Of a stretch of DNA of 64,000 nucleotides, positions 1 to 56,161 are shown piece after piece. This stretch comes from a virus: positions 60,290 to 124,289 of the IMG/VR virus record IMGVR_UViG_3300031578_000002. The stretch is one strand, 5' to 3'. The notes below the pieces were generated by a model. It was not told where the DNA came from, ran no database searches, and saw only the letters and a list, made by a program, of their open reading frames with translations. The position numbers and the translations under genes are program-made. Numbering within the stretch: position 1 is the first letter of the stretch; each line of letters starts with the position of its first letter.

Positions 1-966
1 AGCAGTTCTTTTTGCCGCATGTAGTATGTCAATGACTGAATATCCCCACATTTCGGTTGCAGTATATTTATCAGCAGTATTACCATATTTAACCGAAGTA
101 TTACCCCTTCGATATAATTTAATTTTCTCACTAAGCGTTGTAGGTACTTCATCTAAATTCATATTTAATATTTTTGCTCGGCCTAGAATAAATTCGAAGT
201 CAAACATTTCAGAGTTAAATCCAGATATAATTGCTGGTTGAATGTGATTAATCAAGTTAAAAAAATCTTGAATTAATCTAATTTCAGCATCATCATCATC
301 GAGCTTATCTACTTCCAAAATTAGTTCAAAATCACGATTATCCCTAACGCCAATTGCAAATACTCTGGCCATCTGATATCTTAAGCCAGTTGTTTCAATA
401 TCAAAGGTTAATTTATGCACATTTTTATATTCCTCAAATCCTTTATATAATCGTGATTGTGTTGAAATAAAAAATTGTTCCGTTGTCCTTACCGAATAAA
501 ATAAATCTCTATTTGGGTAAACAATTTTACCCTTATTATCCTTAACTACGTGACCATCACTATCATATAATCTATCGTATGGGTTAATACCACCATCCTT
601 GAGATAATTAAGAATATCATTAAATGATCTACTACTAGTTATTTTAAAACAATAGCCCTCAACAAGTCTTTTTTGATTACCGGTTTTTAATTTAGTTATT
701 GTAATTCCATATTTAATTCGCTTGCTATTAACATAATTTTCAGATACATCTTCGTATAATGTCTTACCTAATTTAGATAAGTCTTTCATATACATAAATG
801 GTTCGTATTTTACATCAATAATTTTTGACTTTTCATTTGGCTCATGTATAATACATTTAGCAATATTATTACGTAGATCGGTTTCCACATTAACGACATA
901 TTTTAAATCATTATTATAACCTTCAAGAAAACCCTTGATTTCACCTAAGACTAAATGTTTATCCAT
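1..966 (-). CDS. Family B DNA polymerase, N-terminal part with 3'-5' exonuclease domain (runs off window start)
   Basis: Absent from the ORF track; translated by hand from ATG at 966 (TAATG overlap with SNF2 stop): MDKHLVLGEIKGFLEG...KLTFDIETTGL...GFNSEMFDFEFI...DILHAAKRTA. ExoI (FDIET) and ExoII (GFN...FD) motifs are present. Confidence 0.8.
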   Translation of the reverse strand, partial: MDKHLVLGEIKGFLEGYNNDLKYVVNVETDLRNNIAKCIIHEPNEKSKIIDVKYEPFMYMKDLSKLGKTLYEDVSENYVNSKRIKYGITITKLKTGNQKRLVEGYCFKITSSRSFNDILNYLKDGGINPYDRLYDSDGHVVKDNKGKIVYPNRDLFYSVRTTEQFFISTQSRLYKGFEEYKNVHKLTFDIETTGLRYQMARVFAIGVRDNRDFELILEVDKLDDDDAEIRLIQDFFNLINHIQPAIISGFNSEMFDFEFILGRAKILNMNLDEVPTTLSEKIKLYRRGNTSVKYGNTADKYTATEMWGYSVIDILHAAKRTA

Positions 967-3900
967 TATTTTTTATGTTTATTTTTTATTATTTGAATTA
1001 AGTCATTAATGATACTTTGATTAATATCTGATTCATATTTTTCACCATCAATAACTTGTGAAATTTCTGCACGTTTTGATTCAATCAAATTAAAAATATA
1101 TTCGTCAATTGTGTCTTTATATATGAAAATGTACGCATTAACTGCATTCTTCTGTCCTATCCGGGCAAGCCTATCCGTGCACTGATCTAATGTACCGGGT
1201 GTCCAAGGTATTGTTAACATTCCGACTTTACTAGCAGCAGTTAATGTCAATCCTTCTTTTGTTGTCGATTCCGATCCTAAAAATATTTTAATTTTACCAT
1301 TCTCATCCTGAAAATCTTTAAGTACATTATTCCTTTCATCATCAGATTCATCACCAGTATGTAATGCAGAAATATTTGGGTATAGTTTATGCAATTCATA
1401 TAAACTATTTTTATAAAAATCGATTGCAACAAATTTTTCACCACTTTCTAATATTGAATCAATCAATTCACTGACATTATTAACTTTCAAATATGAAGTA
1501 TATTCTCTTAATTTACCCATTATTGCTAATGGATTATGTAGTTCTTTATTAACAAATTCATTAGCAACCCCTTCTTCAAGATCATAATATACCTCATATT
1601 CTCTAGGTGTCATTTCCAATACAATTCGCTGATATGTTTTTTCTGGCAAGTCCTTTAATACTTCACTTTTTTTCTTTCGATAAATATATGGTGCAATCTT
1701 ATTAAATAATTCATCAAATTTTGTCATAGTAAAATCAGTTTCCCAACCAAATCCATCTAAATTATAATTCATTCCACAATAATATTCGTAAAAATATTTT
1801 TGTGTGGAAAAATCAATTGGTGATATTTGATTTAAAACACTATATAATTCAGCAGCTTTTGAAGGTGCTGGTGTTCCTGACATAAATACTTTTGACATAT
1901 TCTTGTTCCTGAAGATGTCCTCCTTAAATAGTTTTTTAAAATTTTTGTAGGTATTTGATTTAGTAGATTTTAATCGATGACAATTACTAACTAATATATT
2001 ATTGGCAAAATAATTATGATTATCGGCAATTTCTAAATCATATACTTTTTTATTCGATTGACCACATCTTCCAAATTCTCGTCTATTTCCTGATTCCAAA
2101 ATCTCAATACTCTCCAACCAAACATATTCAATATCTCTGTTTTTCTTTTGTCTAAAAATTTCCATAATTTTCTTTTGTGTGAATTTCCATCCACTTCTAT
2201 AGCAATTTTTAATTGAGGTATTGCAATATCTACCGAATAATGAGTTGGTGGTGAAGGTACTATTATTCCCATTTCTTTTAATGGTTTCATTATTGGTGTT
2301 GAGAATTCCATTTCCATATATGTTATTCCAGATATTGCCGAAAAGAGTTTTAATTGCTGTTTTGTTAATTGACCATTCCCACCTCTCGATAGGAAAGTAC
2401 GACCCCTTGAAGAATTTTTCATTTTCAATAAAGTTTCTTCTGAATACATTGGATTTTTTAATTTCATTCTCATTGAAAGTGCATTTGCTAATTCTGGTCT
2501 TTCCTTGTATACAATTTTTAATGAATTCGATATTTTTACATATGTTTCTTTTGAATGTACCTTTTCTTTTATTTCCACTTGATTCATTCTCCATATTGCA
2601 GAACAACTTTTTGAACAAAATTTTCGTGATAATCTTTTTTTTGCTTGAAATTCTTTCCCACAAATTGGGCATGTTATATTCAATAGGGGTGATATGTTTC
2701 CATTCAATTCTTTCGTTATTGCTATTTTCTTCGCATTTTCTTTGGCGGTATATTTTGTCGAACAAGCTTTTGAACATAAAACATGCTCTTTTCTTTTTTT
2801 CTGAAATTCCTTCTGACAGTGTAAACATTTTACTATTGGCAATGATGGAATTTTTTTCAATTCCCATCTTTTTCTCATTGAGCATGTCGTTGAGCAAAAC
2901 ATTTTTTTTGTATTTTCTTTTGTTTGAAATTCTATTCCACAACATTGACATAATCTTACGATAATTTGTGGTTTTATTCTTCCCCCTTTTGATAAAATTT
3001 TCCCCATATTTAAAATCTTTAATTGGTATATATTCATTTTTTTCGATAGAAAAAAATTTATGTTCAGGTGTACATTCAATAATTTCACCATTTGATAATT
3101 TTACTCTAATTATAGTTTTATATCCATTATATAAATACCTATTAATTGATTTTGCTTCAATTTTTTTTAGACTATGATTATAGCTCAAAATTTTAACATT
3201 TAATTTATTTTCAACAATATCCCCGATTTTAATTTTACCAACATTAGTATCTATTAATGTATCATATGTAAAACATTCGTCACTGATAAGACAATCTATT
3301 TTACCTATATTTAATTTTTCGAATTTACTTTTTACTTTATTAAAATCGGATGAATTAAAATACTCATAATTGGTAATAATATATTTAGCGTCTTCGATAC
3401 TACATGTATTTTTCTTACCAATAATATGTGCTTTAGAATATGTGAATTTCTCGACTTCATTATAATAATTAAATTTTAATGAATTGGGGGTTATAACAAA
3501 AACCTTATTAAATGGATTCATTTCACAATATGCAATGGAGATTACAGTTTTACCAGTCCCCATATCGAGTGCCAATAACGCATTTCTAACCACATTTAAG
3601 AACATAACACTTACAATCTGATGTGGATAAAGTTTTATGTTTGGTTTTAAAAATTTATGTACTTGTTCCGAATATTCCTCATATGTTTCTTCAAGTTCTT
3701 GTTTATATTTAACCCAATGTTCTTTTTTTACATTTAATTCAGCAATAAATTTACGTTTTGCCTCTTCAGCAATTTCAAGTTTTTTTATTTGTTCAATAAA
3801 TATCTTACGGCTATCTTCATTACCAAAATCGAAATGAATTTTATTTGATCCTTTATATCTTTTTATTAATAAAAATAATGAAAGCGTTGAAATTTCCCAA

Positions 3901-4049
3901 ACCATCATGCCTGCATTCCATTTACGTGTGTCTTCAGGGAGTTCTTTTATTCTTTGAGTGATTTGATCATTTATTGGAAACCTAAGATAATACCAATGTC
4001 TTTTTGATATTCTTTCACAATGTACTACGAAAATATTATTGACTTGCAT
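966..4049 (-). CDS. SNF2/SWI2-family helicase containing an intein
   Basis: LYPHQ, ALDMGTGKT (Walker A), SDE|CH after intein removal, MSGTP, KEGLTL and QCTDRLARIGQ motifs. Confidence 0.92.
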   Translation of the reverse strand: MQVNNIFVVHCERISKRHWYYLRFPINDQITQRIKELPEDTRKWNAGMMVWEISTLSLFLLIKRYKGSNKIHFDFGNEDSRKIFIEQIKKLEIAEEAKRKFIAELNVKKEHWVKYKQELEETYEEYSEQVHKFLKPNIKLYPHQIVSVMFLNVVRNALLALDMGTGKTVISIAYCEMNPFNKVFVITPNSLKFNYYNEVEKFTYSKAHIIGKKNTCSIEDAKYIITNYEYFNSSDFNKVKSKFEKLNIGKIDCLISDECFTYDTLIDTNVGKIKIGDIVENKLNVKILSYNHSLKKIEAKSINRYLYNGYKTIIRVKLSNGEIIECTPEHKFFSIEKNEYIPIKDFKYGENFIKRGKNKTTNYRKIMSMLWNRISNKRKYKKNVLLNDMLNEKKMGIEKNSIIANSKMFTLSEGISEKKKRACFMFKSLFDKIYRQRKCEENSNNERIEWKHITPIEYNMPNLWERISSKKKIITKILFKKLFCNMENESSGNKRKGTFKRNICKNIEFIKNCIQGKTRISKCTFNENEIKKSNVFRRNFIENEKFFKGSYFPIERWEWSINKTAIKTLFGNIWNNIYGNGILNTNNETIKRNGNNSTFTTNSLFGRYCNTSIKNCYRSGWKFTQKKIMEIFRQKKNRDIEYVWLESIEILESGNRREFGRCGQSNKKVYDLEIADNHNYFANNILVSNCHRLKSTKSNTYKNFKKLFKEDIFRNKNMSKVFMSGTPAPSKAAELYSVLNQISPIDFSTQKYFYEYYCGMNYNLDGFGWETDFTMTKFDELFNKIAPYIYRKKKSEVLKDLPEKTYQRIVLEMTPREYEVYYDLEEGVANEFVNKELHNPLAIMGKLREYTSYLKVNNVSELIDSILESGEKFVAIDFYKNSLYELHKLYPNISALHTGDESDDERNNVLKDFQDENGKIKIFLGSESTTKEGLTLTAASKVGMLTIPWTPGTLDQCTDRLARIGQKNAVNAYIFIYKDTIDEYIFNLIESKRAEISQVIDGEKYESDINQSIINDLIQIIKNKHKK
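1983..3275 (-). mobile_element. Intein (431 aa) in the DExH motif of the SNF2 helicase
   Basis: Starts CFTYDTLIDT, block B ECTPEHKFF, block F VYDLEIADNHNYFAN, ends ILVSN followed by Cys+1. Removal restores SDECHRLK. Confidence 0.92.
2033..3007 (-). CDS. Zn-finger repeat / NUMOD3-like / DUF559 (Vsr-like) homing endonuclease nested in the +1 frame of the intein
   Basis: Three CxxC..EF..CSxxC repeats, SEETLLKM, and YSVDIAIPQLKIAIEVDGNSH...GWRVLRFWN (PD-(D/E)XK Vsr-like). Likely start MGKILSK at 3007; the ORF is open from 3091. Confidence 0.85.
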   Translation of the reverse strand: MGKILSKGGRIKPQIIVRLCQCCGIEFQTKENTKKMFCSTTCSMRKRWELKKIPSLPIVKCLHCQKEFQKKRKEHVLCSKACSTKYTAKENAKKIAITKELNGNISPLLNITCPICGKEFQAKKRLSRKFCSKSCSAIWRMNQVEIKEKVHSKETYVKISNSLKIVYKERPELANALSMRMKLKNPMYSEETLLKMKNSSRGRTFLSRGGNGQLTKQQLKLFSAISGITYMEMEFSTPIMKPLKEMGIIVPSPPTHYSVDIAIPQLKIAIEVDGNSHKRKLWKFLDKRKTEILNMFGWRVLRFWNQEIDENLEDVVNRIKKYMI

Positions 4050-20278: not shown

Positions 20279-21391
20279 TTAACTATTTTTAAACGTCATA
20301 CTATAATTTATACTTGTTGGGTAATTGCTAACATAAAAACAATAATTAACACTTGACCAACAACTACTTGGTGAATCAATTGCTGCCGTCGTTGCCGCAG
20401 AAAATAAGTCACCTGAAATTGTTCCAGTATTCGATGAAAAATTACCAGCAATCCATTTAGTTTTTGCAGTAGATGTTGCGGGAATTGCAAGCCAAATATA
20501 GTTTCCAGTTGTATTATAATTTGTAACAATTGTATCGCCAGTACTATGTCCAATACAAACATTACCAGCAGTACAAGCATTATTTATTAGTGCTTGACCG
20601 ATTGTTGGCGTGGTTCCAGTACTTCCCCAAAAATATGGATATACGCCTGTAATTGTAATTTGTTTTGAAGGTGATGTGGTTCCAGCAGCACAACATGTCA
20701 TTCCAATAATTGTTCCATCGCTTTTCTTCGGATAGTCACCTGTTAAATATGATACATTTCCATAAACAACATTATTTCCAATTTGAACTGCTCTTGATGC
20801 GAGAGCCACACTATTAGTTAAGCTAGATGATGATACATTACAAATAACACCACCAATATCGGTATAATTATATGTTGAAGGCAATCCTGTTCTCACCGAA
20901 GGTCCACCACAATAAGCGGGTACGACACTACCTTGACTATATGTTCCACATGCAGTAAATGCAATTTGACAACCCGCTTCAAATAATGTTCCTGATGGCG
21001 TTAATGATAACGTATTTGAATTTGCAACACATGTAGGCGCTAGTGTTGGTGCTAATATTAACTCAAGAACTCTTGATAAATCACAACCAGTAATTGATGT
21101 TAATGAGTTTAATCCACCAACAGTACATGTTGTTGGAGATGTACAATTATAAATTGTTGAGCTGCCTGATGCTGAAGATTGAGCTAATTCAATTTGATTT
21201 TTTGTTGAGGAATATGTTAATACATATCCATTAGTTTCACCTGTCACTATAATAGGTATGCTACCGCCATCACCAGTAAGTGATAATCCACTAACACTTG
21301 TAATTATGGTTTGTCCATCTAATGTCAATGTTGTTCCACTTAATTGTTGAAACTGAAGAGAATCTAAATTCGGACGTGCAAAAAATGTCAT
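20279..21391 (-). CDS. Virion structural protein (paralogue of 16654-17637)
   Basis: N-terminus RPNLDSLQFQQ resembles RPNLNCKQFDQ of the long fibre; C-terminus is shared with 16654-17637. Confidence 0.55.
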   Translation of the reverse strand: MTFFARPNLDSLQFQQLSGTTLTLDGQTIITSVSGLSLTGDGGSIPIIVTGETNGYVLTYSSTKNQIELAQSSASGSSTIYNCTSPTTCTVGGLNSLTSITGCDLSRVLELILAPTLAPTCVANSNTLSLTPSGTLFEAGCQIAFTACGTYSQGSVVPAYCGGPSVRTGLPSTYNYTDIGGVICNVSSSSLTNSVALASRAVQIGNNVVYGNVSYLTGDYPKKSDGTIIGMTCCAAGTTSPSKQITITGVYPYFWGSTGTTPTIGQALINNACTAGNVCIGHSTGDTIVTNYNTTGNYIWLAIPATSTAKTKWIAGNFSSNTGTISGDLFSAATTAAIDSPSSCWSSVNYCFYVSNYPTSINYSMTFKNS

Positions 21392-21491
21392 TTTATCATG
21401 TTTTTATATAATTATTAATTCTAAACTTTTGAAGTTTAGCTTTATCTATAATAAATACAAAAAATTCTAATTAAAAACGACATAACATAAA

Positions 21492-21521
21492 AAACCTCAT
21501 AAGAATTTTCTTATGAGGTTT
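21492..21521. terminator. Strong intrinsic terminator ending the non-coding RNA region
   Basis: AAACCTCATAAGA-ATTT-TCTTATGAGGTTT, a 13-bp perfect stem. Confidence 0.8.
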
Positions 21522-21551
21522 CTATTTAAAAAGTTATTATTAATTTAGTTC

Positions 21552-22060
21552 TTTTACTGCAATCACATTTTTTAAAAATCCTGTAATTGACTATTAATTT
21601 TCTATTTATCTTTGACCCAATTTCTTCCCTTATTATATAATTTCAACCATAAATACTATAAACATTTAAAAATAAAATTGAGCAAAGTTTGATATGTTCA
21701 ATGTCAAATCTTTGCCCAATCCATTTTGGAATTATATCTTCTTATATAAGAGAAGAAGTTCTTCCATAATTTCAGCTGTTCAATAACTTTTATCAGGAAT
21801 CTTGCTAACCATAACAATGTTATGCGCTTCACACACCATAAAAGAGCTGAGTATTTCTACTTATCCTAAGTGTGTACCTTTGAGTAACTACTCTTTTAGC
21901 CAAGTTATTTACTCTTTTTTCACAGCCAAAAATCTTTTTTGAAAAAGACTGTACTTCTACAGCCAAAACCATTCTTAATCATCAAATGTTAGACAGCACG
22001 CCTCATTTTTATGAAAAAACTGGTACTGACAGCTAAAAATAATAATGTGGGAATATTTTA
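21552..22060 (-). ncRNA. Putative structured non-coding RNA(s), unassigned family
   Basis: No ORF of 60 aa or more. Several hairpins pair better on the minus strand through G-U pairs (21678-21719 TTGGGCAAAG/CTTTGCTCAA; GCTGTA-GAAG-TACAGT; AGCTG/CAGTT). TTTT(G/A)GCTGT occurs three times. Confidence 0.5.
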
Positions 22061-22174
22061 AAAGTATTTTTTGTTTTTTATGCAAGTTCTACGGACTTGT
22101 GACTTAACCGCTTGTCTAATCATCCTCTAAGAGATAATTGTGGATTCGAACCACTGATTTACTGTAAACACTTT
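22061..22174 (-). tRNA. Circularly permuted tRNA-Tyr(GUA)-like gene
   Basis: Order on the minus strand: T arm GTGG-TTCGAAT-CCAC, acceptor 3' strand ATTATCT, linker CTTAGA, acceptor 5' strand GGATGAT, TA, D arm GAC-AAGCGGTTAA-GTC, anticodon arm CAAGT-CCGTAGA-ACTTG. The outer ends AAAGTGTT/AATACTTT pair. C33 is non-canonical. Confidence 0.6.
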
Positions 22175-22328
22175 ACGTTTTCCCTTTGTATTTTAAAGAA
22201 CTCTACCAAAAGACCAACCATTTGGTATATTATCGCTCTTTTTTATTTTTTTAACACATTTGAATTTGCCATATTATACTAAATTTTAATTTTAATATAA
22301 ATACCAAACAAATTCAAAAAAGCCCAAG

Positions 22329-22465
22329 TAGGGAGAACAGGACTCGAACCTGTAACTCATTGTTTTCAACACAATTGCTTTACCTTTTACTGAAAACACC
22401 ATTAGTTCTCCTTGTGTAAGGAGCATTGAGATAGTATTCTTTGTTTTTTATTTTGCTATCTCCCC
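22329..22465 (-). tRNA. tRNA-like gene (anticodon UGA, short variable loop) with a 60-70 nt insertion in the D arm
   Basis: GGGGAGA/TCTCCCT acceptor stem, TAGC...[insert]...GGTAAAGC, ATTGT-GTTGAAA-ACAAT anticodon arm, ACAGG-TTCGAGT-CCTGT T arm, A73, no encoded CCA. Confidence 0.65.
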
Positions 22466-22538
22466 ATATTAAATATGATAAAGAACTTTAGAAGAAATTT
22501 GTCAGTGTAGTTTTGTTTTTGAAAAACCATCAATTTAC

Positions 22539-23846
22539 TTGGGTAAGTGTAAAACCCATTCATCACGTAGTATGGGTGAGATGTAAGCGGCCACTATAAT
22601 AAAATGTAAATAAAATTTATACTTTCTTTAAACTTTTTGATTTTTCTTGGTATTTATATATGATGTTGAAAGCTTTTAAATATAGACTTAACCCGAATAA
22701 AGAACAAATTGTTCTTCTTAATAAGCATATTGGCGCAAGTAGGTTTCTATATAATTTAGCTTTGGAAACTAAACAAATTGCTTATGCCGGTAATAAACAT
22801 AACCTTTCTTGTTTTGAATTACATTCACAACTAAAAGAATTAAAAGAAGAATGTCCTTGGTTAAAAGAACTTAATTCACAATCTCTACAACAAGCTATAA
22901 CTAATCTAGATAAAGCATATACAACTTTTTTTAAAGGTCAAAATTCATTCCCAAAATTTAAAAAGAAATCTAATGGTGGTAGTTTTAATATACCACAAAG
23001 AGTTATAGTAGAAAATAATAAATTAATTATACCTAAATTTACAAAGAAAAATGGAATAGATATAATCTTACATAGACCAATTAAAGGTGAAATAAGACAA
23101 GCAACAATATCTAAAATACCTACCGGTAAATATTTTGTAAGTATTTTATGTGAAACTGGTGAACAAAATAAACCAAAACCTAAGATTAAAGAAGAAACAA
23201 CAATAGGAATTGATTTAGGGATTAAAGATTTTGTAATTACCTCTAATAGTGAAGTGTTTGACAATCCAAAATATTTAAGAAAGGCACAAGATAAATTAAA
23301 ATATATACAGAGTAAATATTCAAAAAATAAAGGAAAAAAAATAAAACAAAAATTAGCTAAGTTACATGAAAAAGTAACAAATAAAAGAAAAGATTATTTG
23401 CATAAAGTATCAACTAAATTAATTCGTGAGAACCAAACGATTTGTTTAGAAGATTTGAATGTATCAGGTATGATTAAAAATCATAAGTTAGCACAAAGCA
23501 TTAGTGATGTTGGTTGGTCTACATTTGTGACTATGTCAGAATACAAAGCTGAATGGTATGGAACAAATATACTTCGTATTGGTAGATTTGAACCTAGTAG
23601 TAAGACATGTTCATGTTGTGGTAACATTAACGAAGAACTAACATTAAAAGATCGTGAATGGACTTGTGTTAGGTGTAACACTAAACACGACAGAGATATA
23701 AATGCTGCTGTAAATATTAAAAATTTTAGTTTAAGAAATATCTTGTCAGGGACTGACAGGAAAAATCATGACGAACTGCCTACGTTAGTAGGAGTACTGA
23801 CTCATGAAGCCCAACCCATCAGCACTGCTGTGGGTGGGTAGTTCAC
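22539..23846 (+). mobile_element. IS200/IS605-family (IS1341-like) TnpB-only element 1
   Basis: Left-end hairpin ACCCA...TGGGT-GAGATGTAAGCG after TTTAC; right end GAAGCCCAACCCATC...GTGGGTGGGTAGTTCAC. Both ends align with element 2 (54743-56166). Confidence 0.85.
22660..23841 (+). CDS. tnpB: TnpB RNA-guided nuclease
   Basis: HTH KAFKYRL, GIDLGIKD, ICLEDLNV, CSCCG...CVRC zinc finger, HDRDINAA; the catalytic D-E-D triad is intact. Confidence 0.95.
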   Translation: MMLKAFKYRLNPNKEQIVLLNKHIGASRFLYNLALETKQIAYAGNKHNLSCFELHSQLKELKEECPWLKELNSQSLQQAITNLDKAYTTFFKGQNSFPKFKKKSNGGSFNIPQRVIVENNKLIIPKFTKKNGIDIILHRPIKGEIRQATISKIPTGKYFVSILCETGEQNKPKPKIKEETTIGIDLGIKDFVITSNSEVFDNPKYLRKAQDKLKYIQSKYSKNKGKKIKQKLAKLHEKVTNKRKDYLHKVSTKLIRENQTICLEDLNVSGMIKNHKLAQSISDVGWSTFVTMSEYKAEWYGTNILRIGRFEPSSKTCSCCGNINEELTLKDREWTCVRCNTKHDRDINAAVNIKNFSLRNILSGTDRKNHDELPTLVGVLTHEAQPISTAVGG

Positions 23847-23886
23847 TGAAATAACGAACAGTTTCCTTTTTATTTTTTCATTAATT

Positions 23887-23894
23887 TAAAGAAC
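23887..23894 (-). promoter_or_regulatory. boxA-like antitermination motif GTTCTTTA (further copies at 22479-22486 and 22194-22201)
   Basis: An identical octamer precedes each tRNA-like unit and resembles the rrn boxA (G(C/T)TCTTT). Confidence 0.5.
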
Positions 23895-23911
23895 GTTGTC
23901 CTAAGACGATA

Positions 23912-23942
23912 CAAACATAAAATTAATTATTTTAATTTGCAA
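23912..23942 (-). promoter_or_regulatory. Bacteroidota-type sigma70 promoter facing the tRNA-like/ncRNA array
   Basis: TTG, 20 nt, TATGTTTG on the minus strand; no minus-strand CDS follows it. Confidence 0.65.
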
Positions 23943-24024: not shown

Positions 24025-27000
24025 TTATTCTTTTTTTATAACAGCTTGACCTTTACGTAGTTTCGTTAATATTTCTTGAACGTTTTTGTTTTTATTATCA
24101 ATTTCATCGGGATCAATTAGGTTTTGCTCAATAACTGATAATGGCAAATCCTCAATTATTTTAGGTTTTGGTATTATCAGTTTTTCTTCCTTAGCTTCTG
24201 AAATTATCTTAACATCATCTAGCTCGATTTCTACTGACTCGGCAATATTTTCAGTTTCTGTATTACCTGTCCATTCAAAAAGCGATGTATCAATATTTGA
24301 TGCTTCGATTTCATCGGTGTCATTAAATAGTTTTCCAGTTTCTAAGTCATCATTATCCTCACAAATTTCTATTAATTTGTTATCTTTAACCTCATTAATA
24401 ATTATTTCAGGTGATTGTTGTATGTTTGATTCAACATTCATATTTATTCTTAATAATTCATTGATCTTTTGTGGATTATTCATAACACCATCACCCACAT
24501 CATTATTATTTAATTCATCAATTAATATTCTTTCTCGATTAATAATTGCCTCATGAATATTTATTGTTGTGGACTTTTCAGCTAATTTATCAGCATTTTT
24601 TTCAAGATTTTCAATGTCCTTTTCATCATAATGTTTTAAATTTTTATATGTTTTAGTATATATGTATCTAGAGTCATTGATAATAATTTCCATAGTATCA
24701 TTATTAAAAATGCAGTCTTCAAATGTTTGACCATCCTTTGCAAATCTAGCTTTTAATATTCTAATGTTTGCAAAGTTTGCCTCTTGTTGTGCTGGTGTTT
24801 TAGCAACGCTCATGAAAAAGTGTGCTTTTTGTATTCTCTTAATACTACCACCTGACTGATGTGCTTCAACAAATTCAGCACCAAAGCCTGAACGGTTTGA
24901 TTGTATAGCCGACCAAGCTGGTATATTAAAATCTGATGATAATGCTTCAAATCCTTTAATTATTGCCAACTCAGCTTCATTTCTATCCGGGGACTTTTTA
25001 TGTGATTCTACACAATCAAGATAATCCAAAACAAGTAGATCGAACTTAAATCCATACTTTTTTTGATAATTGGTCATCCAATTTCGGATATCCATCATCG
25101 TAGTATTTTCTTGACTAAATCTTTTTATTATTAATCTACCTTTACCTTCAAGGGTTTTAACCTTTTCATGCACTACTTTAGTAACTCGCTCATTTTCATC
25201 TTCATCATTAAGCTTACTTAATGCTGACTTAGCCCATATTGTATAATGTTTACGTTTTATTTGGTCTTTAGTATCTTCAAAAATTATTTGTGCAACATTT
25301 TTTTCATCTTCATATGCAGTATTTGCGATAATTGTTAATGCCGTGGTATTATGTGTTAATACATAATCATCAATAACATATAAATGATCATCATTTTCAA
25401 CATATATACAAGTAGCCTCTTCTTCATGAGAATATTCAATATTTTTTATAAATTTATTGTATTCATATTTATTTCGAAATACAATTCTATCGAGTTTGGC
25501 AGGTAATGTACAGGGAATAATATCGTTATTTGGGAAACTTATTGTTAAACGATAATTATTTTTACCGGGAATTTTGATACCAATTTTATTAGTATAAAAT
25601 TTAATTTTTTCGGTTGTTCTACAGGTACCTCCTAATGATAAGACTAACTCTTTAACATTTTTTGATAGTTCTTTTGATACTGTTGTATATATAATTGCCC
25701 CATTTTTTCCAACACCACCATTCGAATCAATTAATCCTTGTAACAATTTTTCTCTATATTCAATAGAATTATATAAATAATTTTGTGGGATAAATTTTGT
25801 ACTCGAATTGGTTCCATATAACCCAAGCTCATTTTCTAATACGCTTCTTGAATTTAGTAAGGATAACCTATACAATTTTTTATAATTCTCTTTTCTGCCT
25901 TCATATTCATGGACAACAATTGATTGATCAATATTTTTTATTTTATCTACTATGAATCTGTCTGATGTTGTTATATACGGTTGATTTTTTCTCGTAATAC
26001 ATCCATCTCCCAATAAAACACCCATAATATATGGGTCAATTTTAACATCAACTTTATTAAATTGAATTGGCATTACGTTTGGTAATCTATAATTCAAACT
26101 GCCATTTAGATTGAAGTCTTTCATCATTTCTGATGTCGTTAATACTTGAAAAGTATGATCTGGAATGCTTAGCGTTTTACCATTTATTTTTGTTTTTCGA
26201 TTTCTTTGTTTAAATGAATTAACCGACCATAAATGTTCTGAATCACAAAACGATGTTGTTTGATCTGAAAAAATGATTTTATATATTTTTCTTATACCTT
26301 GTGGATATACCGCTAGTATTTTTTGTGGATTACCATCACTACCAAATATTGTGTCATTTACTTTTAACGTACCGTTTTCTACCCAACCATTTAATGTCAA
26401 TACTTTATGACTGTTAGGCAATGCTTTTCCTACACCACTTGGCGTTAATATTAATCCAATCTCTCCTTTACCTAAGCCACCACCAGTAAGTGAATCAATC
26501 ACGCCAATACCTGTTGGTATTGTTTCTCTGAATTCTTTTCTTAAAGCACGATCAATACCCTCAGTAACGTCCTCACAGTCATCCTCATCATCGCCAATAT
26601 GTGTTATTTTTTGAAATCTATCCTCGATTGCAACTACAGCGTATTTATTTTTAATTTCACCGGTTTTAACTTTATCAATAATACCCTCAGCTAATTTACG
26701 ATATTCTTGTTGTTTAATAAATCCTGTTGTTGATTTTTGAATTACATCGCCATCATAAAGCATTTGCTTATTTATTATTCTAGTATTCCATAACTCAATA
26801 CGCTTTAAAATACCAAATAACGATTCTTCTTCAACAACATTATTAGGTTTTTTATATCTATTTATTGCATGGTGAATACTTTGATTTTGAAGGTTAGGTA
26901 CTTTTTGAAATTCTTTATAATACTCTAAAATTATTAAAAATAATCGTTTTAAATTTGGATCATCGAAATATTCAATTGCTAGATCGGGTATGACCTTTTC

Positions 27001-27096
27001 AGCAAATTCTGGCTCAACCAATAATTGCCACATTAAATGTTCTTGAAATTCAATGCCTAAATATGCGGATAATGTATTCTCGGATGTGTTTACCAT
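24025..27096 (-). CDS. dnaB: Replicative DnaB/gp41-like helicase with intein and acidic C-terminal tail
   Basis: IPTGIGVIDSLTGGGLGKGE, PSGVGK|TT after splicing, LVLDYLD, WSAIQSNR, LKARFAKDG. Confidence 0.92.
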   Translation of the reverse strand: MVNTSENTLSAYLGIEFQEHLMWQLLVEPEFAEKVIPDLAIEYFDDPNLKRLFLIILEYYKEFQKVPNLQNQSIHHAINRYKKPNNVVEEESLFGILKRIELWNTRIINKQMLYDGDVIQKSTTGFIKQQEYRKLAEGIIDKVKTGEIKNKYAVVAIEDRFQKITHIGDDEDDCEDVTEGIDRALRKEFRETIPTGIGVIDSLTGGGLGKGEIGLILTPSGVGKALPNSHKVLTLNGWVENGTLKVNDTIFGSDGNPQKILAVYPQGIRKIYKIIFSDQTTSFCDSEHLWSVNSFKQRNRKTKINGKTLSIPDHTFQVLTTSEMMKDFNLNGSLNYRLPNVMPIQFNKVDVKIDPYIMGVLLGDGCITRKNQPYITTSDRFIVDKIKNIDQSIVVHEYEGRKENYKKLYRLSLLNSRSVLENELGLYGTNSSTKFIPQNYLYNSIEYREKLLQGLIDSNGGVGKNGAIIYTTVSKELSKNVKELVLSLGGTCRTTEKIKFYTNKIGIKIPGKNNYRLTISFPNNDIIPCTLPAKLDRIVFRNKYEYNKFIKNIEYSHEEEATCIYVENDDHLYVIDDYVLTHNTTALTIIANTAYEDEKNVAQIIFEDTKDQIKRKHYTIWAKSALSKLNDEDENERVTKVVHEKVKTLEGKGRLIIKRFSQENTTMMDIRNWMTNYQKKYGFKFDLLVLDYLDCVESHKKSPDRNEAELAIIKGFEALSSDFNIPAWSAIQSNRSGFGAEFVEAHQSGGSIKRIQKAHFFMSVAKTPAQQEANFANIRILKARFAKDGQTFEDCIFNNDTMEIIINDSRYIYTKTYKNLKHYDEKDIENLEKNADKLAEKSTTINIHEAIINRERILIDELNNNDVGDGVMNNPQKINELLRINMNVESNIQQSPEIIINEVKDNKLIEICEDNDDLETGKLFNDTDEIEASNIDTSLFEWTGNTETENIAESVEIELDDVKIISEAKEEKLIIPKPKIIEDLPLSVIEQNLIDPDEIDNKNKNVQEILTKLRKGQAVIKKE
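25348..26424 (-). mobile_element. Class 3 (Ala1, WCT) intein with LAGLIDADG endonuclease in the DnaB P-loop (359 aa)
   Basis: Starts ALPNSHKV; block B HLWSV (W), block F ATCIYV (C), block G VLTHN (T), Thr+1; LAGLIDADG motifs MGVLLGDG and LQGLIDSNG. Confidence 0.9.
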
Positions 27097-54961: not shown

Positions 54962-56161
54962 ATGAAAGTAATTAATAAGACATATAGATTTAGGATTTCA
55001 CCTAATAAAGAGCAGGAAGTGTTACTAAATAAGCACTTTGGTTGTTCTCGCTTTGTCTATAATTACTTTTTAAATGAACGTAAAGAGCAATATCAACAAG
55101 ATAAGAAATCAGACAATTATTATGCACAAGCAAAAACTCTAACTGATTTAAAAAAGCAAGAAGATACTATTTGGTTAAAAGAGGTAAATAGTCAAACCCT
55201 TCAATTTGCTTTACGTTCTTTAGATACTGCTTACGTAAATTTCTTTAGAGGTAATGCACAATTTCCAAAATTTAAATCAAGAAAACACAAAAATACTTTC
55301 ACAATTCCCCAATTCGGAGTGTTAACCGATGACAAAATATCAATACCTAAATTTAAAGAAGGAATTAAAGTAAAATTACATAGAAAGGTTAATGGCAAAA
55401 TTGGTAAAATGAGTATTACCCGAACACCTACTGGTAAATATTATGTATCAATATTCACGGAACAACATATTGAAGAATTACTTAAAACAAATAAACAAGT
55501 TGGAATTGACCTTGGAATTAAAGATTTTGTAATTACATCTGATAATAAGAAATTTAAAAATAATAAATATACAAAGAAATATGCAAGAGAATTAAAGAAA
55601 GCACAACAGCATCTTTCTCGTAAAACAAAAGGTAGCAATTCGTTTGAAAAACAAAAACTCAAAGTTGCCTTAATTCACGAGAAAATTGCAAGTTGTAGAT
55701 TAGACGCTTTACATAAAGTTTCACATCAACTGGTTAATCAATATGACTTATTATCAGTTGAGGACTTGAATGTAAAAGGTATGATTAAAAACCACAAATT
55801 ATCCAAACATATTGCTGATGCAAGTTGGGGTACTTTTGTTACATTACTACAATACAAATGTAATTGGTATGGAAAAGAACTTGTAAAAGTAAATCGTTTC
55901 TATCCTTCAAGCAAGACTTGTAATGTTTGTGGATGGATAAATCAAGACTTAAATCTTTTGATTAGAGAGTGGACTTGTAATAATTGTGGTGAACATCACG
56001 ACAGAGATGTTAATGCAAGTATCAATATTCTAAAAGAAGGATTAAAAATATATCGTCAGGAACTGGCGATTACAAAGGTGGAGAGTAAATCAGACGTTAG
56101 TAATAACGCACGCTCAATGAAACCTGAAGCCCAACCCATCGCCTTTGGCGTGGGTGGGTAG
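54962..56161 (+). CDS. tnpB: TnpB RNA-guided nuclease
   Basis: KTYRFRISP, GIDLGIKD, LSVEDLNV, CNVCG...CNNC, HDRDVNAS; triad intact. Confidence 0.95.
   Translation: MKVINKTYRFRISPNKEQEVLLNKHFGCSRFVYNYFLNERKEQYQQDKKSDNYYAQAKTLTDLKKQEDTIWLKEVNSQTLQFALRSLDTAYVNFFRGNAQFPKFKSRKHKNTFTIPQFGVLTDDKISIPKFKEGIKVKLHRKVNGKIGKMSITRTPTGKYYVSIFTEQHIEELLKTNKQVGIDLGIKDFVITSDNKKFKNNKYTKKYARELKKAQQHLSRKTKGSNSFEKQKLKVALIHEKIASCRLDALHKVSHQLVNQYDLLSVEDLNVKGMIKNHKLSKHIADASWGTFVTLLQYKCNWYGKELVKVNRFYPSSKTCNVCGWINQDLNLLIREWTCNNCGEHHDRDVNASINILKEGLKIYRQELAITKVESKSDVSNNARSMKPEAQPIAFGVGG

What the first reader, a model, noticed from the sequence alone, without database searches (positions are those of the whole stretch)
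22329..22465. tRNA-like gene with a 60-70 nt D-arm insertion, an anti-5'-end segment and mismatched identity elements
Seen: perfect T arm, anticodon stem and acceptor stem, but the D arm is interrupted after TAGC by the conserved module with an internal hairpin (CTCCTT-ACAC-AAGGAG). Removing 22454-22394 leaves TAGC-TCAGTAAAAGGTAAAGC, close to a canonical D arm. The insert also holds CTATCTC, exactly complementary to the gene's own 5' end (GAGATAG), giving a mutually exclusive fold. The anticodon reads UGA (Ser) with G32, a short variable loop and A73, which are not serine identity elements. Inference: a spliced non-canonical tRNA, a conformational switch, or a decoy for host anticodon nucleases.
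Basis: partly seen in the sequence, partly recalled or inferred. Interest (0 to 1): 0.75.

Follow-up and report, generated by a model that had tools for sequence, protein, structure and literature searches.

The report
Phage tRNA look-alike with built-in handle
This is a real, conserved small RNA gene of giant soil phages: a tRNA-shaped RNA with an extra two-helix arm built into its D loop. Related phages always follow this RNA cluster with a Ro60-like RNA-binding protein gene, so it is most likely a Y-RNA-style tRNA mimic, not a broken or spliced tRNA.

Summary
Window 22465-22329 (minus strand) encodes a 137-nt RNA with a 7-bp acceptor stem, an anticodon arm (loop GUUGAAA) and a canonical T arm. 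A 61-nt insert sits just after G10-C11.

It is not a decayed pseudogene. I collected 65 distinct homologues from jumbo-phage contigs, and 25 of 30 modelled base pairs show compensatory changes. Every homologue carries the insert; none lacks it.

The insert is a two-helix "handle" (H2, internal loop, H1, then CAGUAA). The same handle appears in other wirings around neighbouring RNAs. A short D stem covaries across the insert, so the handle lies inside the D loop. The anti-5'-end pairing is also conserved.

Complete relatives carry 55-58 ordinary tRNAs elsewhere, including a normal tRNA-Ser(UGA). In all 28 informative copies a 545-aa protein gene follows the RNA operon. Fold search and protein-language-model features both place that protein with Ro60/TROVE.

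My best reading is a Y-RNA-like tRNA mimic whose insert docks a Ro60-like protein. Splicing is not supported. The decoy idea is untested.

In this window's record the Ro60-like gene is absent. This scan has noted similar handle-plus-Ro60-like systems in other phage genomes.

The parts
22329..22465 (-). Whole 137-nt tRNA-shaped RNA gene (the 'cis-handle' type)
   Evidence: Model R1 scores it at 146.5 bits, E 3e-38. The RNAfold MFE is -33.7 kcal/mol with z -2.8, giving acceptor stem, handle hairpin, anticodon arm and T arm. RNAalifold gives the same consensus.
22459..22465 (-). Acceptor stem, 5' strand GGGGAGA (nt 1-7)
   Evidence: Pairs with 22330-22336. Across 65 distinct homologues the stem is 99.3% paired, and 6 of 7 pairs show changes on both sides.
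22329..22336 (-). Acceptor stem, 3' strand UCUCCCU plus discriminator A; no encoded CCA in this copy
   Evidence: This is the only copy with a G1-U72 wobble. CCA follows the discriminator in about 8 relatives.
22455..22456 (-). D-stem 5' strand G10-C11, pairing across the insert with G88-C89 (22377-22378)
   Evidence: In other subfamilies the short D stem covaries across the insert: TGC/GCA, GCA/TGC, GATT/AATC, GTG/CAC, GTA/TAC, GTTT/AAAC and GCT/AGC.
22394..22454 (-).
   Evidence: It is present in every true homologue found by a search that did not use the insert sequence.
22441..22454 (-). A-rich single-stranded linker (nt 12-25), the 5' tail of the handle
   Evidence: The motif AAAACAAA is conserved in all wirings of the handle.
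22393..22440 (-). Handle core. H2 pairs nt 26-34 AGAAUACUA with nt 65-73 UGGUGUUUU. Then comes an internal loop and the H1 hairpin (nt 43-58).
   Evidence: H2 is 89.7% paired, with 6 of 9 pairs changed on both sides. H1 is 99.2% paired, with 4 of 4 pairs changed on both sides. RNAfold and RNAalifold predict both helices independently.
22428..22434 (-). Anti-5'-end segment CUAUCUC (nt 32-38). It is complementary to nt 4-10 (22456-22462) and overlaps the H2 5' strand by 3 nt.
   Evidence: The duplex is -9.8 kcal/mol. It is compensated in L075 (GAAGUAG/CUACUUC) and in L002-B (GAGUUAG/CUAACUC). The cognate duplex beats the non-cognate one in 17 of 20 5'-end classes, Wilcoxon p 7e-5.
22387..22392 (-). 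CAGUAA, the conserved 3' tail of the handle; in this wiring it doubles as the 5' part of the D loop
   Evidence: It is invariant or nearly so in A1. It is also present where no D loop follows, in the permuted and hairpin-cargo units.
22380..22386 (-). Rest of the D loop, AAGGUAA, carrying the G18-G19 equivalent
   Evidence: GGU is nearly invariant in the alignments.
22359..22375 (-). Anticodon arm: 5-bp stem and 7-nt loop GUUGAAA (anticodon UGA, G32, U33, A37)
   Evidence: The stem is 100% paired, with 4 of 5 pairs compensated. The loop GUUGAAA occurs in 16 of 38 copies on four different stems, and 17 of 38 copies lack U33.
22337..22353 (-). T arm ACAGG-UUCGAGU-CCUGU
   Evidence: 100% paired, with 5 of 5 pairs compensated.
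22049..22184 (-). Neighbouring unit with the same handle opened the other way: a circularly permuted tRNA-like RNA (context, not part of the finding)
   Evidence: This unit has its own earlier follow-up.
22491..22538 (-). 3' part of the upstream handle unit (an anticodon-arm-like hairpin plus the downstream handle half ending UUUCUUC). Its 5' part is at 23847-23866.
   Evidence: The unit is split at UUUCA|GUAA by the tnpB element.
22539..23846 (+). IS605-type element with tnpB (ORF 22660-23841), inserted in the upstream handle unit
   Evidence: Pfam domains OrfB_IS605, Cas12f1-like TNB and HTH_OrfB. The junction was read.

Best explanation
The gene encodes a stable, non-decoding tRNA mimic. 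It belongs to a family of 'handle RNAs' found in jumbo phages of about 330-360 kb.

The RNA folds as a cloverleaf with genuine acceptor, anticodon and T arms. Its D stem is only 2-4 bp. That stem closes a very large D loop, and a conserved two-helix arm (the handle: A-rich tail, H2, internal loop, H1, CAGUAA) is built into this loop. The handle is the constant module of the family. The same module closes or flanks neighbouring RNAs in other wirings.

In relatives the operon is always followed by a gene for a divergent Ro60/TROVE-like ring protein. I therefore infer that the handle is the docking site for that protein, as the conserved stem of a Y RNA is for Ro60. The tRNA-shaped body would then be the effector module that engages tRNA-recognising enzymes. 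Candidates are RNase P, the phage CCA-adding and repair protein, modification enzymes, or host tRNA nucleases.

The conserved pairing of the 5' end with the insert gives a second fold that sequesters the acceptor 5' strand. It is most likely a co-transcriptional intermediate or a switch.

Shown here: the fold, its conservation, the universality of the insert, the shared module, the gene linkage, and the fold similarity of the protein. Inferred: protein binding, processing, and the biological role.
For: (1) Real structured RNA.
- 74 full-length matches (65 distinct) were found in related phage loci.
- 96.7% of cells are paired, against 83% in shuffles (0 of 500 shuffles reach the observed value) and at most 55% when partners are slid.
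- 25 of 30 pairs show changes on both sides.

(2) The insert is integral.
- Every true homologue found with a D-loop/anticodon pattern that ignores the insert still carries it.
- Complete relatives have 1-2 copies each.

(3) The D stem covaries across the insert in seven sequence types, which places the handle inside the D loop.

(4) The same module occurs in other wirings: permuted tRNA-like units, units flanking a whole tRNA, and units flanking small hairpins. The handle pattern matched 98 viral loci (152 hits).

(5) It is not needed for decoding.
- Complete relatives carry 55 and 58 ordinary tRNAs for all 20 amino acids. These include a class II tRNA-Ser(UGA) with loop CUUGAAA and a tRNA-Tyr.
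- 17 of 38 copies lack U33, and loops vary between phages while the stems covary.

(6) Gene linkage.
- A 545-aa protein gene lies 0.4-2.7 kb downstream on the same strand in all 28 copies with enough flanking DNA. It is present in all four complete genomes.
- In the reciprocal test, 47 of 54 loci chosen by the protein have a full-scoring copy upstream on the same strand.

(7) The protein is Ro60-like.
- The 8 top Foldseek PDB hits are all Ro60, full length, E 5.7e-6 to 2.2e-4.
- VIA-align gives Z 10.3-7.7 for TROVE/Ro60 structures, including the Ro60 of Thermus phage phiLo.
- 68 of 100 named ESM Atlas hits are TROVE clusters, score 0.94.
- A DxSxS...T...D MIDAS-like motif lies in the C-terminal alpha/beta domain.

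(8) Precedent.
- Y-like RNAs are encoded just upstream of phage Ro60 genes and bind the protein (PMC12135203).
- YrlA Y RNAs mimic tRNA and can be cut by RNase P and receive CCA (PMC4201824).

(9) All five phage records encode a CCA-adding domain. In this genome it sits in a 1776-aa polyvalent protein, together with an ADP-ribosyltransferase domain and a 2H phosphoesterase domain.
Against: - No homologue of the Ro60-like protein is present in this window's own 140.8-kb record. At the syntenic place the operon runs straight into the 370-aa gene. The record is estimated at only 46% complete, so the gene may lie elsewhere or may be lost.
- Binding of the protein to the handle is inferred from gene linkage only.
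- The protein model has low confidence (pLDDT 61, pTM 0.43), TM-scores are 0.23-0.28, and Pfam sees no TROVE domain.
- Unlike known Y RNAs, this RNA keeps free ends on a perfect 7-bp acceptor stem with discriminator A. Some relatives even encode CCA. That looks like a chargeable tRNA.
- The loop GUUGAAA is kept on four different stems, which could reflect decoding.
- Removing the insert leaves a sequence that ARAGORN calls a tRNA in 32 of 38 homologues.
- No Rfam YrlA match was found, and the YrlA/Yrl CGAA motif is absent from this copy.
- No expression data could be obtained.
Confidence: 0.55

Rival explanations
1. Intron-containing pre-tRNA. The handle is a cut-and-rejoin signal. An unknown endonuclease and a ligase excise it, giving a 76-nt class I tRNA with anticodon UGA. 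The same signal would process the permuted and flanked units, much as archaea use bulge-helix-bulge motifs.
For: - Removing the insert lets ARAGORN call a tRNA in 32 of 38 copies.
- The module occurs in exactly the three contexts where archaeal bulge-helix-bulge motifs occur: inside a tRNA, around a permuted tRNA, and in a leader-trailer stem.
- The linker of the permuted neighbour encodes G-CCA in L002 and L006.
- The insert pairs with the end of the 5' exon, like an internal guide.
Against: - No insert-less allele is found among dozens of homologues.
- In-silico removal works at many junctions, so no splice site is defined.
- The helices do not form a 3-4-3 bulge-helix-bulge, and 61 nt is too small for a group I intron. 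No Rfam intron or ribozyme match was found.
- No EndA or RtcB is found in four complete phage genomes, and RNA-ligase domains occur in only one of them.
- CAGUAA belongs to the module in every wiring. If it were removed, only a stunted D arm would remain.
- Full tRNA sets already exist.
- The linkage to a Ro60-like gene has a simpler reading.
Confidence: 0.12
2. Processing stem. The handle is a double-strand-specific cleavage site, for RNase III or a phage nuclease, that releases units from the polycistronic transcript. In this wiring cleavage would yield a two-piece tRNA-like RNA held together by its acceptor stem.
For: - In most wirings the handle is a leader-trailer helix around the unit.
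- Two-piece tmRNA, and M. smegmatis YrlA cleaved by RNase P (PMC4201824), are precedents for split tRNA-like RNAs.
Against: - The unpaired parts of the handle are strongly conserved in sequence (AAC, GUKUUUNCAGUAA, AAAACAAA). This exceeds what a structure-specific nuclease needs.
- The helices are short (4-6 and 8-9 bp) and interrupted.
- A 7-bp acceptor stem alone would hold the two pieces only weakly.
- This reading does not explain the strict linkage to the Ro60-like gene.
Confidence: 0.1
3. Working tRNA with an extra arm. The 137-nt RNA is charged and decodes UCA (or serves a special decoding task), and the handle is tolerated as an elbow extension. It might make the tRNA resistant to host tRNA nucleases.
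For: - It has a perfect acceptor stem, a T loop, the GG of the D loop, a 5-bp/7-nt anticodon arm with U33 and A37 in this copy, and discriminator A.
- CCA is encoded in some relatives.
- The loop GUUGAAA is conserved on covarying stems.
- The same phages make many tRNAs with unusual long variable arms.
- Phage tRNAs with altered anticodon loops that evade host nucleases are proposed in PMC10264068.
Against: - The UGA anticodon sits on a class I body with A73, which does not fit bacterial Ser identity. Established knowledge is that SerRS needs the long variable arm.
- G32 is unusual.
- 17 of 38 homologues lack U33, and some have degenerate T loops such as CUCGAAA.
- A normal tRNA-Ser(UGA) is present in relatives.
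- The same handle is carried by cargos that cannot decode.
Confidence: 0.08
4. Free-standing decoy or sponge for a host anticodon nuclease or other tRNA-binding defence protein, acting without any Ro60-like partner.
For: - Anticodon loops resemble those of tRNA-Ser(UGA) or tRNA-Tyr(GUA) but are altered at position 32 or 33, and they vary quickly between phages.
- tRNA-Ser isoacceptors cleaved at a GA site within the anticodon are cited in PMC10264068.
- This window's record lacks the Ro60-like gene yet keeps an intact, top-scoring RNA.
- The phage invests in tRNA-end repair.
Against: - No nuclease target is identified.
- The reading does not explain why a conserved handle is needed.
- It does not explain the near-universal linkage to the Ro60-like gene.
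- It is compatible with the best explanation as the downstream role, so it is not a sharp alternative.
Confidence: 0.1
5. Decayed tRNA pseudogene with a chance insertion.
For: ARAGORN and Rfam at its gathering threshold do not call it. It lies beside a tnpB element.
Against: There are 65 distinct homologues with compensatory changes in every helix, including the insert's own helices. The window copy scores among the best of them.
Confidence: 0.02

Closest known systems
YrlA-type bacterial and phage Y RNAs with Ro60/Rsr (Rfam RF02553; Chen et al. 2014, PMC4201824; bioRxiv 10.1101/312249)
   Same: - A small RNA that combines a conserved protein-docking helix with a tRNA-like module (T arm, D-loop features, acceptor-like stem).
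- In relatives it is encoded in an operon directly upstream of a Ro60-type ring protein gene.
- Several RNAs occur per locus.
- M. smegmatis YrlA has a 7-bp acceptor-like stem, is cut by RNase P and receives CCA.
   Different: - There is no Rfam YrlA match.
- The handle has a different sequence (AAC ... GUKUUUNCAGUAA / AAAACAAA ... AAUACU) and lacks the GNCGAAN0-1G motif.
- Here the handle is an internal hairpin in the D loop, not the stem formed by the 5' and 3' ends.
- The acceptor stem is open, with free ends.
- A complete anticodon arm is kept.
- The partner protein is too divergent for Pfam TROVE.
- In this window's record the protein gene is missing.
Thermus phage phiLo Ro60 with Yrl1/Yrl2 (PMC12135203; PDB 9KOP, 9L5Y)
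   Same: A phage-encoded Ro60 homologue with Y-like RNA genes immediately upstream. The phiLo structures are among the best structural matches of the 545-aa protein: Z 10.3 and 9.4.
   Different: The phiLo Yrl RNAs are classical stem-bulge-stem Y RNAs with a CGAA motif and no tRNA body. Here there are 3-7 RNAs per operon, with tRNA or anticodon-arm cargos in several wirings.
Archaeal tRNA introns at non-canonical positions and permuted or split tRNA genes (bulge-helix-bulge system; e.g. PMC3241643)
   Same: A tRNA gene is interrupted in the D-arm region by a short structured insert that pairs with exon sequence. The same motif is also used around a permuted tRNA-like gene next door.
   Different: - This is a bacterial-type phage, with a Bacteroidota-like promoter and a bacterial-type DnaB.
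- The insert has no 3-4-3 bulge-helix-bulge geometry.
- No EndA or RtcB gene is found in the phage genomes.
- No intron-less alleles are found.
Two-piece (circularly permuted) tmRNA and other tRNA mimics
   Same: tRNA-like domains are used for a non-decoding purpose, gene wirings are rearranged, and the RNAs are recognised by tRNA-processing enzymes.
   Different: There is no mRNA-like reading frame and only a negligible Rfam tmRNA match (5.8 bits). The extra arm is at the D loop.

Membership tests
Canonical tRNA (Rfam RF00005) | Score at or above the family gathering threshold, or detection by ARAGORN | tested here: not met
   28.4 bits against a threshold of 29, and only for model positions 9-63. 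ARAGORN finds nothing, with or without its intron option.
Canonical tRNA (Rfam RF00005) | 7-bp acceptor stem, 5-bp anticodon stem with a 7-nt loop, and a 5-bp T stem with a UUCRANY loop | tested here: met
   All three helices are 99-100% paired across 65 homologues, with compensatory changes.
Canonical tRNA (Rfam RF00005) | D arm with a 3-4-bp stem closing a 7-11-nt loop | tested here: not met
   In this copy a 2-bp stem (G10-C11 with G88-C89) closes a 76-nt loop (nt 12-87) that holds the handle hairpin.
Bacterial tRNA-Ser | Long variable arm and G73 (established SerRS identity elements) | tested here: not met
   The variable loop is 5 nt (GAGUU) and the discriminator is A. The genuine phage tRNA-Ser(UGA) in relatives is 88 nt with a long arm and a G discriminator.
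Group I intron in a tRNA gene | Intron of about 200 nt or more with a P1-P9 core, usually in the anticodon loop | tested here: not met
   The insert is 61 nt and sits in the D loop. No Rfam intron match was found, even at E up to 10.
Archaeal-type bulge-helix-bulge intron | Two 3-nt bulges separated by a 4-bp helix at the exon-intron junctions | tested here: not met
   The predicted and covarying helices are H2 (9 bp) and H1 (4-6 bp), separated by a 6 x 8-nt internal loop. The junctions are long single strands.
Archaeal-type bulge-helix-bulge intron | Splicing endonuclease (EndA) and an RtcB-type ligase available | tested here: not met
   PF01974 and PF01139 are absent from this record and from four complete relatives. 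Host enzymes could not be tested.
Any intron | Spliced product exists | not testable with these tools
   No RNA runs were listed for this sequence.
YrlA / Y RNA (RF02553) | Match to the Rfam model | tested here: not met
   RF02553 does not appear among matches up to E 10 in 21300-22700.
YrlA / Y RNA (RF02553) | Encoded next to a Ro60/TROVE gene | tested here: inconclusive
   Relatives meet this with a divergent Ro60-like gene: 28 of 28 informative copies, and 47 of 54 in the reciprocal test. This window's record does not, and it is only 46% complete.
YrlA / Y RNA (RF02553) | Ro-binding stem formed by the RNA's 5' and 3' ends, carrying the GNCGAAN0-1G (CGAA) motif | tested here: not met
   In this RNA the conserved helix is an internal hairpin and the ends form the acceptor stem. 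No CGAA is present in the insert (motif as defined in PMC4201824 and PMC12135203).
YrlA / Y RNA (RF02553) | tRNA-like effector module with T-arm and D-loop features | tested here: met
   It has the T loop UUCGAGU, the GG in the D loop, and U8-A9.
YrlA / Y RNA (RF02553) | Physical binding to Ro60 | not testable with these tools
   This needs EMSA or co-immunoprecipitation.
Jumbo-phage 'handle RNA' family (defined in this scan, not published as far as I found) | Shared module: A-rich tail, H2, internal loop, H1 with AAC, then GUKUUUNCAG(U/A)AA | tested here: met
   The pattern matched 98 viral loci, and the window copy has every element.
Ro60/TROVE (the 545-aa protein of relatives) | Helical-repeat ring plus a C-terminal vWA/MIDAS domain; recognised by Pfam TROVE | tested here: inconclusive
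   Pfam does not recognise it. Fold and feature searches do: Foldseek top 8 hits are Ro60, E down to 5.7e-6; VIA-align Z up to 10.3; ESM Atlas TROVE clusters at 0.94. The model is of low confidence (pLDDT 61).

The most novel reading that the evidence does not exclude
The handle is a universal cut-and-rejoin signal of a bacterial-virus RNA processing system, functionally parallel to the archaeal bulge-helix-bulge system. It would be excised from the D loop here (true splicing of a phage tRNA at a non-anticodon position). It would also drive circularisation and re-opening of the permuted neighbour. The Ro60-like ring would act as the platform that holds the ends for a host ligase such as RtcB.
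Probability: 0.07. Interest if true: 0.9.

Novelty: new variant of a known kind. Interest (0 to 1): 0.6.

Why it matters
Ro60 with Y RNA is an ancient ribonucleoprotein whose bacterial and phage roles are still poorly understood. This family shows a widespread multi-RNA version in soil and freshwater jumbo phages. Its protein escapes Pfam, and its RNAs escape Rfam and tRNA finders.

The RNA studied here is the most tRNA-like member. It has a complete cloverleaf with open acceptor ends, and the docking arm is grafted into the D loop. That makes a clean test possible. Does a Ro60-type ring get tethered to tRNA-processing, tRNA-repair or tRNA-cleaving enzymes through a tRNA body? Does the conserved 5'-end alternative pairing gate that?

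The finding also matters for annotation. Genes like this one are currently missed, or would be miscalled as intron-containing tRNAs or pseudogenes. The phages also carry CCA-adding and repair fusion proteins and full tRNA sets, so the system probably belongs to the contest between phages and hosts over tRNA integrity.

Tried and rejected
- **Expression data.** Two run searches listed only two soil-metagenome DNA holders and no RNA holder (the first attempt failed because the machine was busy). Splicing or expression could therefore not be examined, and read laying was not used.
- **Exact search in viral contigs** with the window's anticodon/T-arm sequence found nothing. A BLAST search of GenBank phages found nothing either.
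- **Handle pattern in bacterial and archaeal genomes.** The scan gave about the number of hits expected by chance. A few hits on short contigs binned to Bacteroidota are probably phage DNA. This gave no host assignment.
- **Gene searches.** Pfam TROVE, RtcB, EndA and RNA-ligase searches of this record and of four complete relatives found no conserved splicing or ligation gene. They also missed the divergent Ro60-like gene.
- **Automatic detection of acceptor and T arms** was too permissive in AT-rich DNA and was redone with positional limits.
The nucleotide before CAG does not track position 23.
- **Known small ribozymes** (hammerhead, hairpin, twister and others), box C/D elements and a kink-turn were considered for the handle. 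There is no Rfam match, and the candidate CUGA is not conserved.
- **Neighbouring genes** give no clue. The 370-aa protein downstream has no Pfam or PHROG match.
- **Profile search of the 545-aa protein** against PDB sequences found nothing.
- **A class I 'tRNA-Ser(tga)' in a relative's tRNA array** was checked as a possible insert-less paralogue and is unrelated.
Full report
**1. What is in the sequence**

The window is part of a 140,815-bp IMG/VR virus record with about 28% G+C, estimated 46% complete.
- Acceptor 5' strand GGGGAGA, then U8-A9, then G10-C11.
- A 61-nt insert (22454-22394).
- UCAGUAAAAGGUAAAGC-A.
- Anticodon arm AUUGU/GUUGAAA/ACAAU.
- Variable loop GAGUU.
- T arm ACAGG/UUCGAGU/CCUGU.
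- Acceptor 3' strand UCUCCCU and discriminator A.

The insert holds the hairpin CUCCUU-ACAC-AAGGAG. It also holds CUAUCUC, the exact complement of nt 4-10.

ARAGORN finds no tRNA in the window or in the whole record, with or without its intron option. Rfam at gathering thresholds finds nothing. In E-value mode the tRNA model matches only the stretch from the D loop to the T arm, at 28.4 bits against a threshold of 29.

**2. It is a conserved gene, and the insert is part of it**

The flanking 370-aa protein led to related phage loci. They contain homologues of the RNA with the insert. A degenerate pattern for the 3' half of the insert matched 98 viral loci, with 152 hits.

I aligned 38 distinct full-length copies (alignment A1) and built covariance model R1. 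With loci chosen independently through a protein (see section 5), R1 returned 74 full-length matches, 65 of them distinct (alignment A3). On A3:
- 96.7% of cells are paired. Shuffles give 83% (0 of 500 reach the observed value), and slid partners give at most 55%.
- 25 of 30 pairs have changes on both sides.
- By helix, pairs with changes on both sides are: acceptor 6 of 7, T stem 5 of 5, anticodon stem 4 of 5, insert helix H1 4 of 4, insert helix H2 6 of 9.

RNAfold on the window copy (-33.7 kcal/mol, z -2.8) and RNAalifold on A1 both give the same fold on their own. That fold is the acceptor stem, a long hairpin made of H2 and H1, the anticodon arm and the T arm.

I also ran a search keyed on the D loop and anticodon arm that ignores the insert. 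Every true homologue it found still carried the insert. The only insert-less hits were chance matches inside coding sequence. This is not a decayed pseudogene.

**3. Anatomy of the insert**

The insert has these elements, 5' to 3':
- An A-rich tail (nt 12-25).
- The H2 5' strand AGAAUACUA (nt 26-34).
- An 8-nt loop strand.
- The H1 hairpin (nt 43-58).
- AACUAA (nt 59-64).
- The H2 3' strand UGGUGUUUU (nt 65-73).
- The invariant CAGUAA (nt 74-79).

A short D stem pairs the nucleotides just before the insert with those just before the anticodon stem. In the main subfamily, including the window, it is only GC/GC. In other subfamilies it is TGC/GCA, GCA/TGC, GATT/AATC, GTG/CAC, GTA/TAC, GTTT/AAAC or GCT/AGC. 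This is covariation across the insert. The whole arm therefore sits inside a giant D loop, followed by the conserved GG.

**4. The anti-5'-end pairing**

GAGAUAG/CUAUCUC gives -9.8 kcal/mol. It is fully compensated in L075 (GAAGUAG/CUACUUC) and in L002-B (GAGUUAG/CUAACUC). The second large subfamily uses a different pair of sequences, AGUAU-GCGA with UCGU-A-AUACU.

Over the 20 distinct 5'-end classes in A3, the cognate duplex is more stable than non-cognate ones in 17 (Wilcoxon p 7e-5).

This pairing excludes the acceptor stem. In the window's subfamily it also excludes three pairs of H2. An alternative fold is therefore under selection. Because the 3' acceptor strand is transcribed last, the simplest reading is a co-transcriptional intermediate or a switch. 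That part is inference.

**5. The same module elsewhere, and the linked protein**

The module ('handle') recurs in the same operons in other wirings:
- Opened the other way round a circularly permuted tRNA-like RNA (window 22184-22049).
- Around a whole tRNA with a 5-bp acceptor stem.
- Around an anticodon-arm-like hairpin. In the window this unit is split by a tnpB element at UUUCA|GUAA, leaving 23866-23847 and 22538-22491.
- Around other hairpins.

Earlier notes of this scan on other phage genomes said that such handles lie beside a Ro60-like protein gene. I tested that here.

*Linkage.*
- In relatives a 545-aa ORF follows the operon 0.4-2.7 kb downstream on the same strand. This holds in all 28 copies with enough flanking DNA. 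The 9 copies without a match all have less than 1.3 kb of downstream DNA held.
- The ORF is present next to the RNA in all four complete genomes.
- In the reciprocal test, 47 of 54 loci chosen by the protein (down to 48% identity) have a full-scoring copy of this RNA upstream on the same strand.

*Nature of the protein.*
- It has no Pfam match.
- Its AlphaFold model (pLDDT 61) shows about 360 helical residues followed by an alpha/beta domain with a DxSxS...T...D motif.
- The 8 best Foldseek PDB hits are all Ro60, aligned over the full length (E 5.7e-6 to 2.2e-4). Deinococcus Rsr and the Ro60 of Thermus phage phiLo follow.
- VIA-align gives Z 10.3-7.7 for the same structures, then vWA/MIDAS domains alone.
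- In the ESM Atlas, 68 of 100 named neighbours are TROVE clusters, score 0.94.
- I read it as a divergent Ro60 homologue, at moderate confidence.

**6. Is the RNA a decoder?**

Complete relatives carry 55 tRNAs (G001) and 58 tRNAs (G007) about 100 kb away. These cover all 20 amino acids. They include an 88-nt class II tRNA-Ser(UGA) with loop CUUGAAA and tRNA-Tyr(GUA). No handle motif occurs in those arrays.

In the handle RNAs the anticodon loop is GUUGAAA in 16 of 38 copies, on four different stems. Elsewhere it is CAGUAAA, CGUUCAA, CCGUAAA, CUAUGAA and others. In all, 17 of 38 copies lack U33. Some copies have degenerate T loops.

A UGA anticodon on a class I body with A73 does not fit bacterial Ser identity (established knowledge). 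A decoding role is therefore unnecessary and, for much of the family, unlikely. I cannot exclude it for the window's subfamily.

**7. Is it spliced?**

Removing the insert in silico makes ARAGORN call a tRNA in 32 of 38 copies, against 2 of 38 unspliced. But this works over many junctions, so no splice site is defined.

Further points against splicing:
- No insert-less alleles exist among the homologues found.
- The insert is neither a group I intron nor a bulge-helix-bulge motif.
- EndA and RtcB are absent from four complete phage genomes, and RNA-ligase domains occur in only one of them.
- CAGUAA belongs to the module in every wiring.

The one observation that favours processing is in the permuted neighbour. 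Its linker encodes G-CCA in L002 and L006. About 8 cis copies also encode CCA after the discriminator. That fits RNase P cleavage and CCA maturation of a tRNA mimic, as shown for M. smegmatis YrlA (PMC4201824), as well as it fits splicing.

All five phage records encode a CCA-adding domain. In this genome it lies in a 1776-aa polyvalent protein, together with an ADP-ribosyltransferase domain and a 2H phosphoesterase domain.

**8. Best explanation and comparison with known systems**

The RNA works like a Y RNA of the YrlA kind: a constant protein-docking helix plus a tRNA-shaped effector module, encoded upstream of a Ro60-type gene. Phage Ro60 genes with upstream Y-like RNAs that bind the protein are published (PMC12135203; also PMC4201824, and a mention for jumbo phages in PMC7824862).

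It is not a member of Rfam YrlA, for these reasons:
- There is no model match.
- The handle sequence is different and has no CGAA motif.
- The handle is internal to the D loop rather than formed by the RNA's ends.
- The acceptor stem is open.
- A full anticodon arm is retained.

I found no paper describing this handle or this wiring. This scan has noted similar systems on other phage DNA.

**9. A caveat specific to this window**

The Ro60-like gene is absent from this 140.8-kb record. The operon is followed, after about 940 nt of non-coding sequence, by the 370-aa gene. In relatives that gene comes only after the Ro60-like gene and an ARPP-1-domain gene.

The operon here is also reduced. It has no tRNA-Met and no tRNA-flanking unit, and one unit is broken by the tnpB element.

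The RNA itself is intact and scores among the best copies, with only a G1-U72 wobble. Three explanations remain open. The protein gene may lie in the unsequenced half. A host Ro60 may serve; B. thetaiotaomicron, used as a control genome, has TROVE. Or the RNA may act without the protein.

**10. Verdict**

- Observation: confirmed.
- Interpretation: partly supported. The alternative fold is real, splicing is not supported, and the decoy idea is open.
- Best explanation: a handle-bearing, Y-RNA-like tRNA mimic, confidence 0.55.
- Novelty: a new variant of a known kind.

Noticed in passing
window 22539-23846 (+), tnpB ORF 22660-23841; second tnpB 54962-56161 (+): An IS605-type tnpB element is inserted exactly inside the conserved handle sequence of the first RNA unit (UUUCA|GUAA on the minus strand). 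A second tnpB copy about 32 kb away shares about 70-82% identical stretches, including the 3' end.
   Followed up: partly
G000:C1:48812-54142 (-), = L241:113-5443:-, about 6 kb upstream of the window start: A 1776-aa polyvalent protein combines three modules: an ART-PolyVal ADP-ribosyltransferase domain, a CCA-adding enzyme (PolyA_pol, its RNA-binding domain and tRNA_NucTran2_2), and a 2H phosphoesterase (LigT/Acb1-like). This looks like a tRNA 3'-end repair or counter-defence fusion. A CCA-adding domain is present in all five related records searched.
   Followed up: partly
L242-L246 (G001:C1:195000-240000; G007:C1:248000-284000): Complete relatives carry 55-58 tRNA genes. Many normally class I tRNAs occur as pairs, one of normal length and one with a long variable arm: Pro 96 nt, Val 89, Thr 88, Met 88, Glu 84, Trp 84, Lys 85, Asn 86. 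Class II-shaped versions of class I tRNAs are unusual and unexplained.
   Followed up: partly
L244:2314-2386 and L246:14908-14982: Both complete relatives encode a tRNA with a CUA anticodon (an amber-suppressor type, labelled Pyl by ARAGORN). The handle-flanked tRNA of the operon carries UUA, UCA, CAA or GUC-type loops in different phages. I did not check for stop-codon recoding.
   Followed up: no
window 21391-22049 (-) compared with L006:2700-6000: Relative to all informative relatives, this genome lacks a cassette of about 3.1 kb (the Ro60-like gene plus an ARPP-1-domain gene) between the RNA operon and the 370-aa gene. About 650 nt of non-coding sequence remains, part of it conserved (window about 21935-22040). 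A degenerate handle-like motif, GUGAUUGCAGUAA, lies at about 21554-21566.
   Followed up: partly
window 966-4049 (-) and 24025-27096 (-): The SNF2-family helicase and the DnaB-like helicase are both interrupted by inteins. The first shows Intein_splicing/HINT domains, the second LAGLIDADG/Hom_end domains.
   Followed up: no
window 23912-23942 and 23886-23895, 22479-22486, about 22192-22199 (-): A Bacteroidota-type promoter (TTG ... TAnnTTTG) is followed by boxA-like (C)GUUCUUUA elements before each RNA unit. The same motif precedes the units in relatives. This suggests an antiterminated stable-RNA operon and a Bacteroidota host.
   Followed up: partly
L007:700-1460: In one relative a Cys-rich ORF of about 250 aa (possibly a homing-endonuclease-like gene) is inserted between RNA units of the operon.
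   Followed up: no
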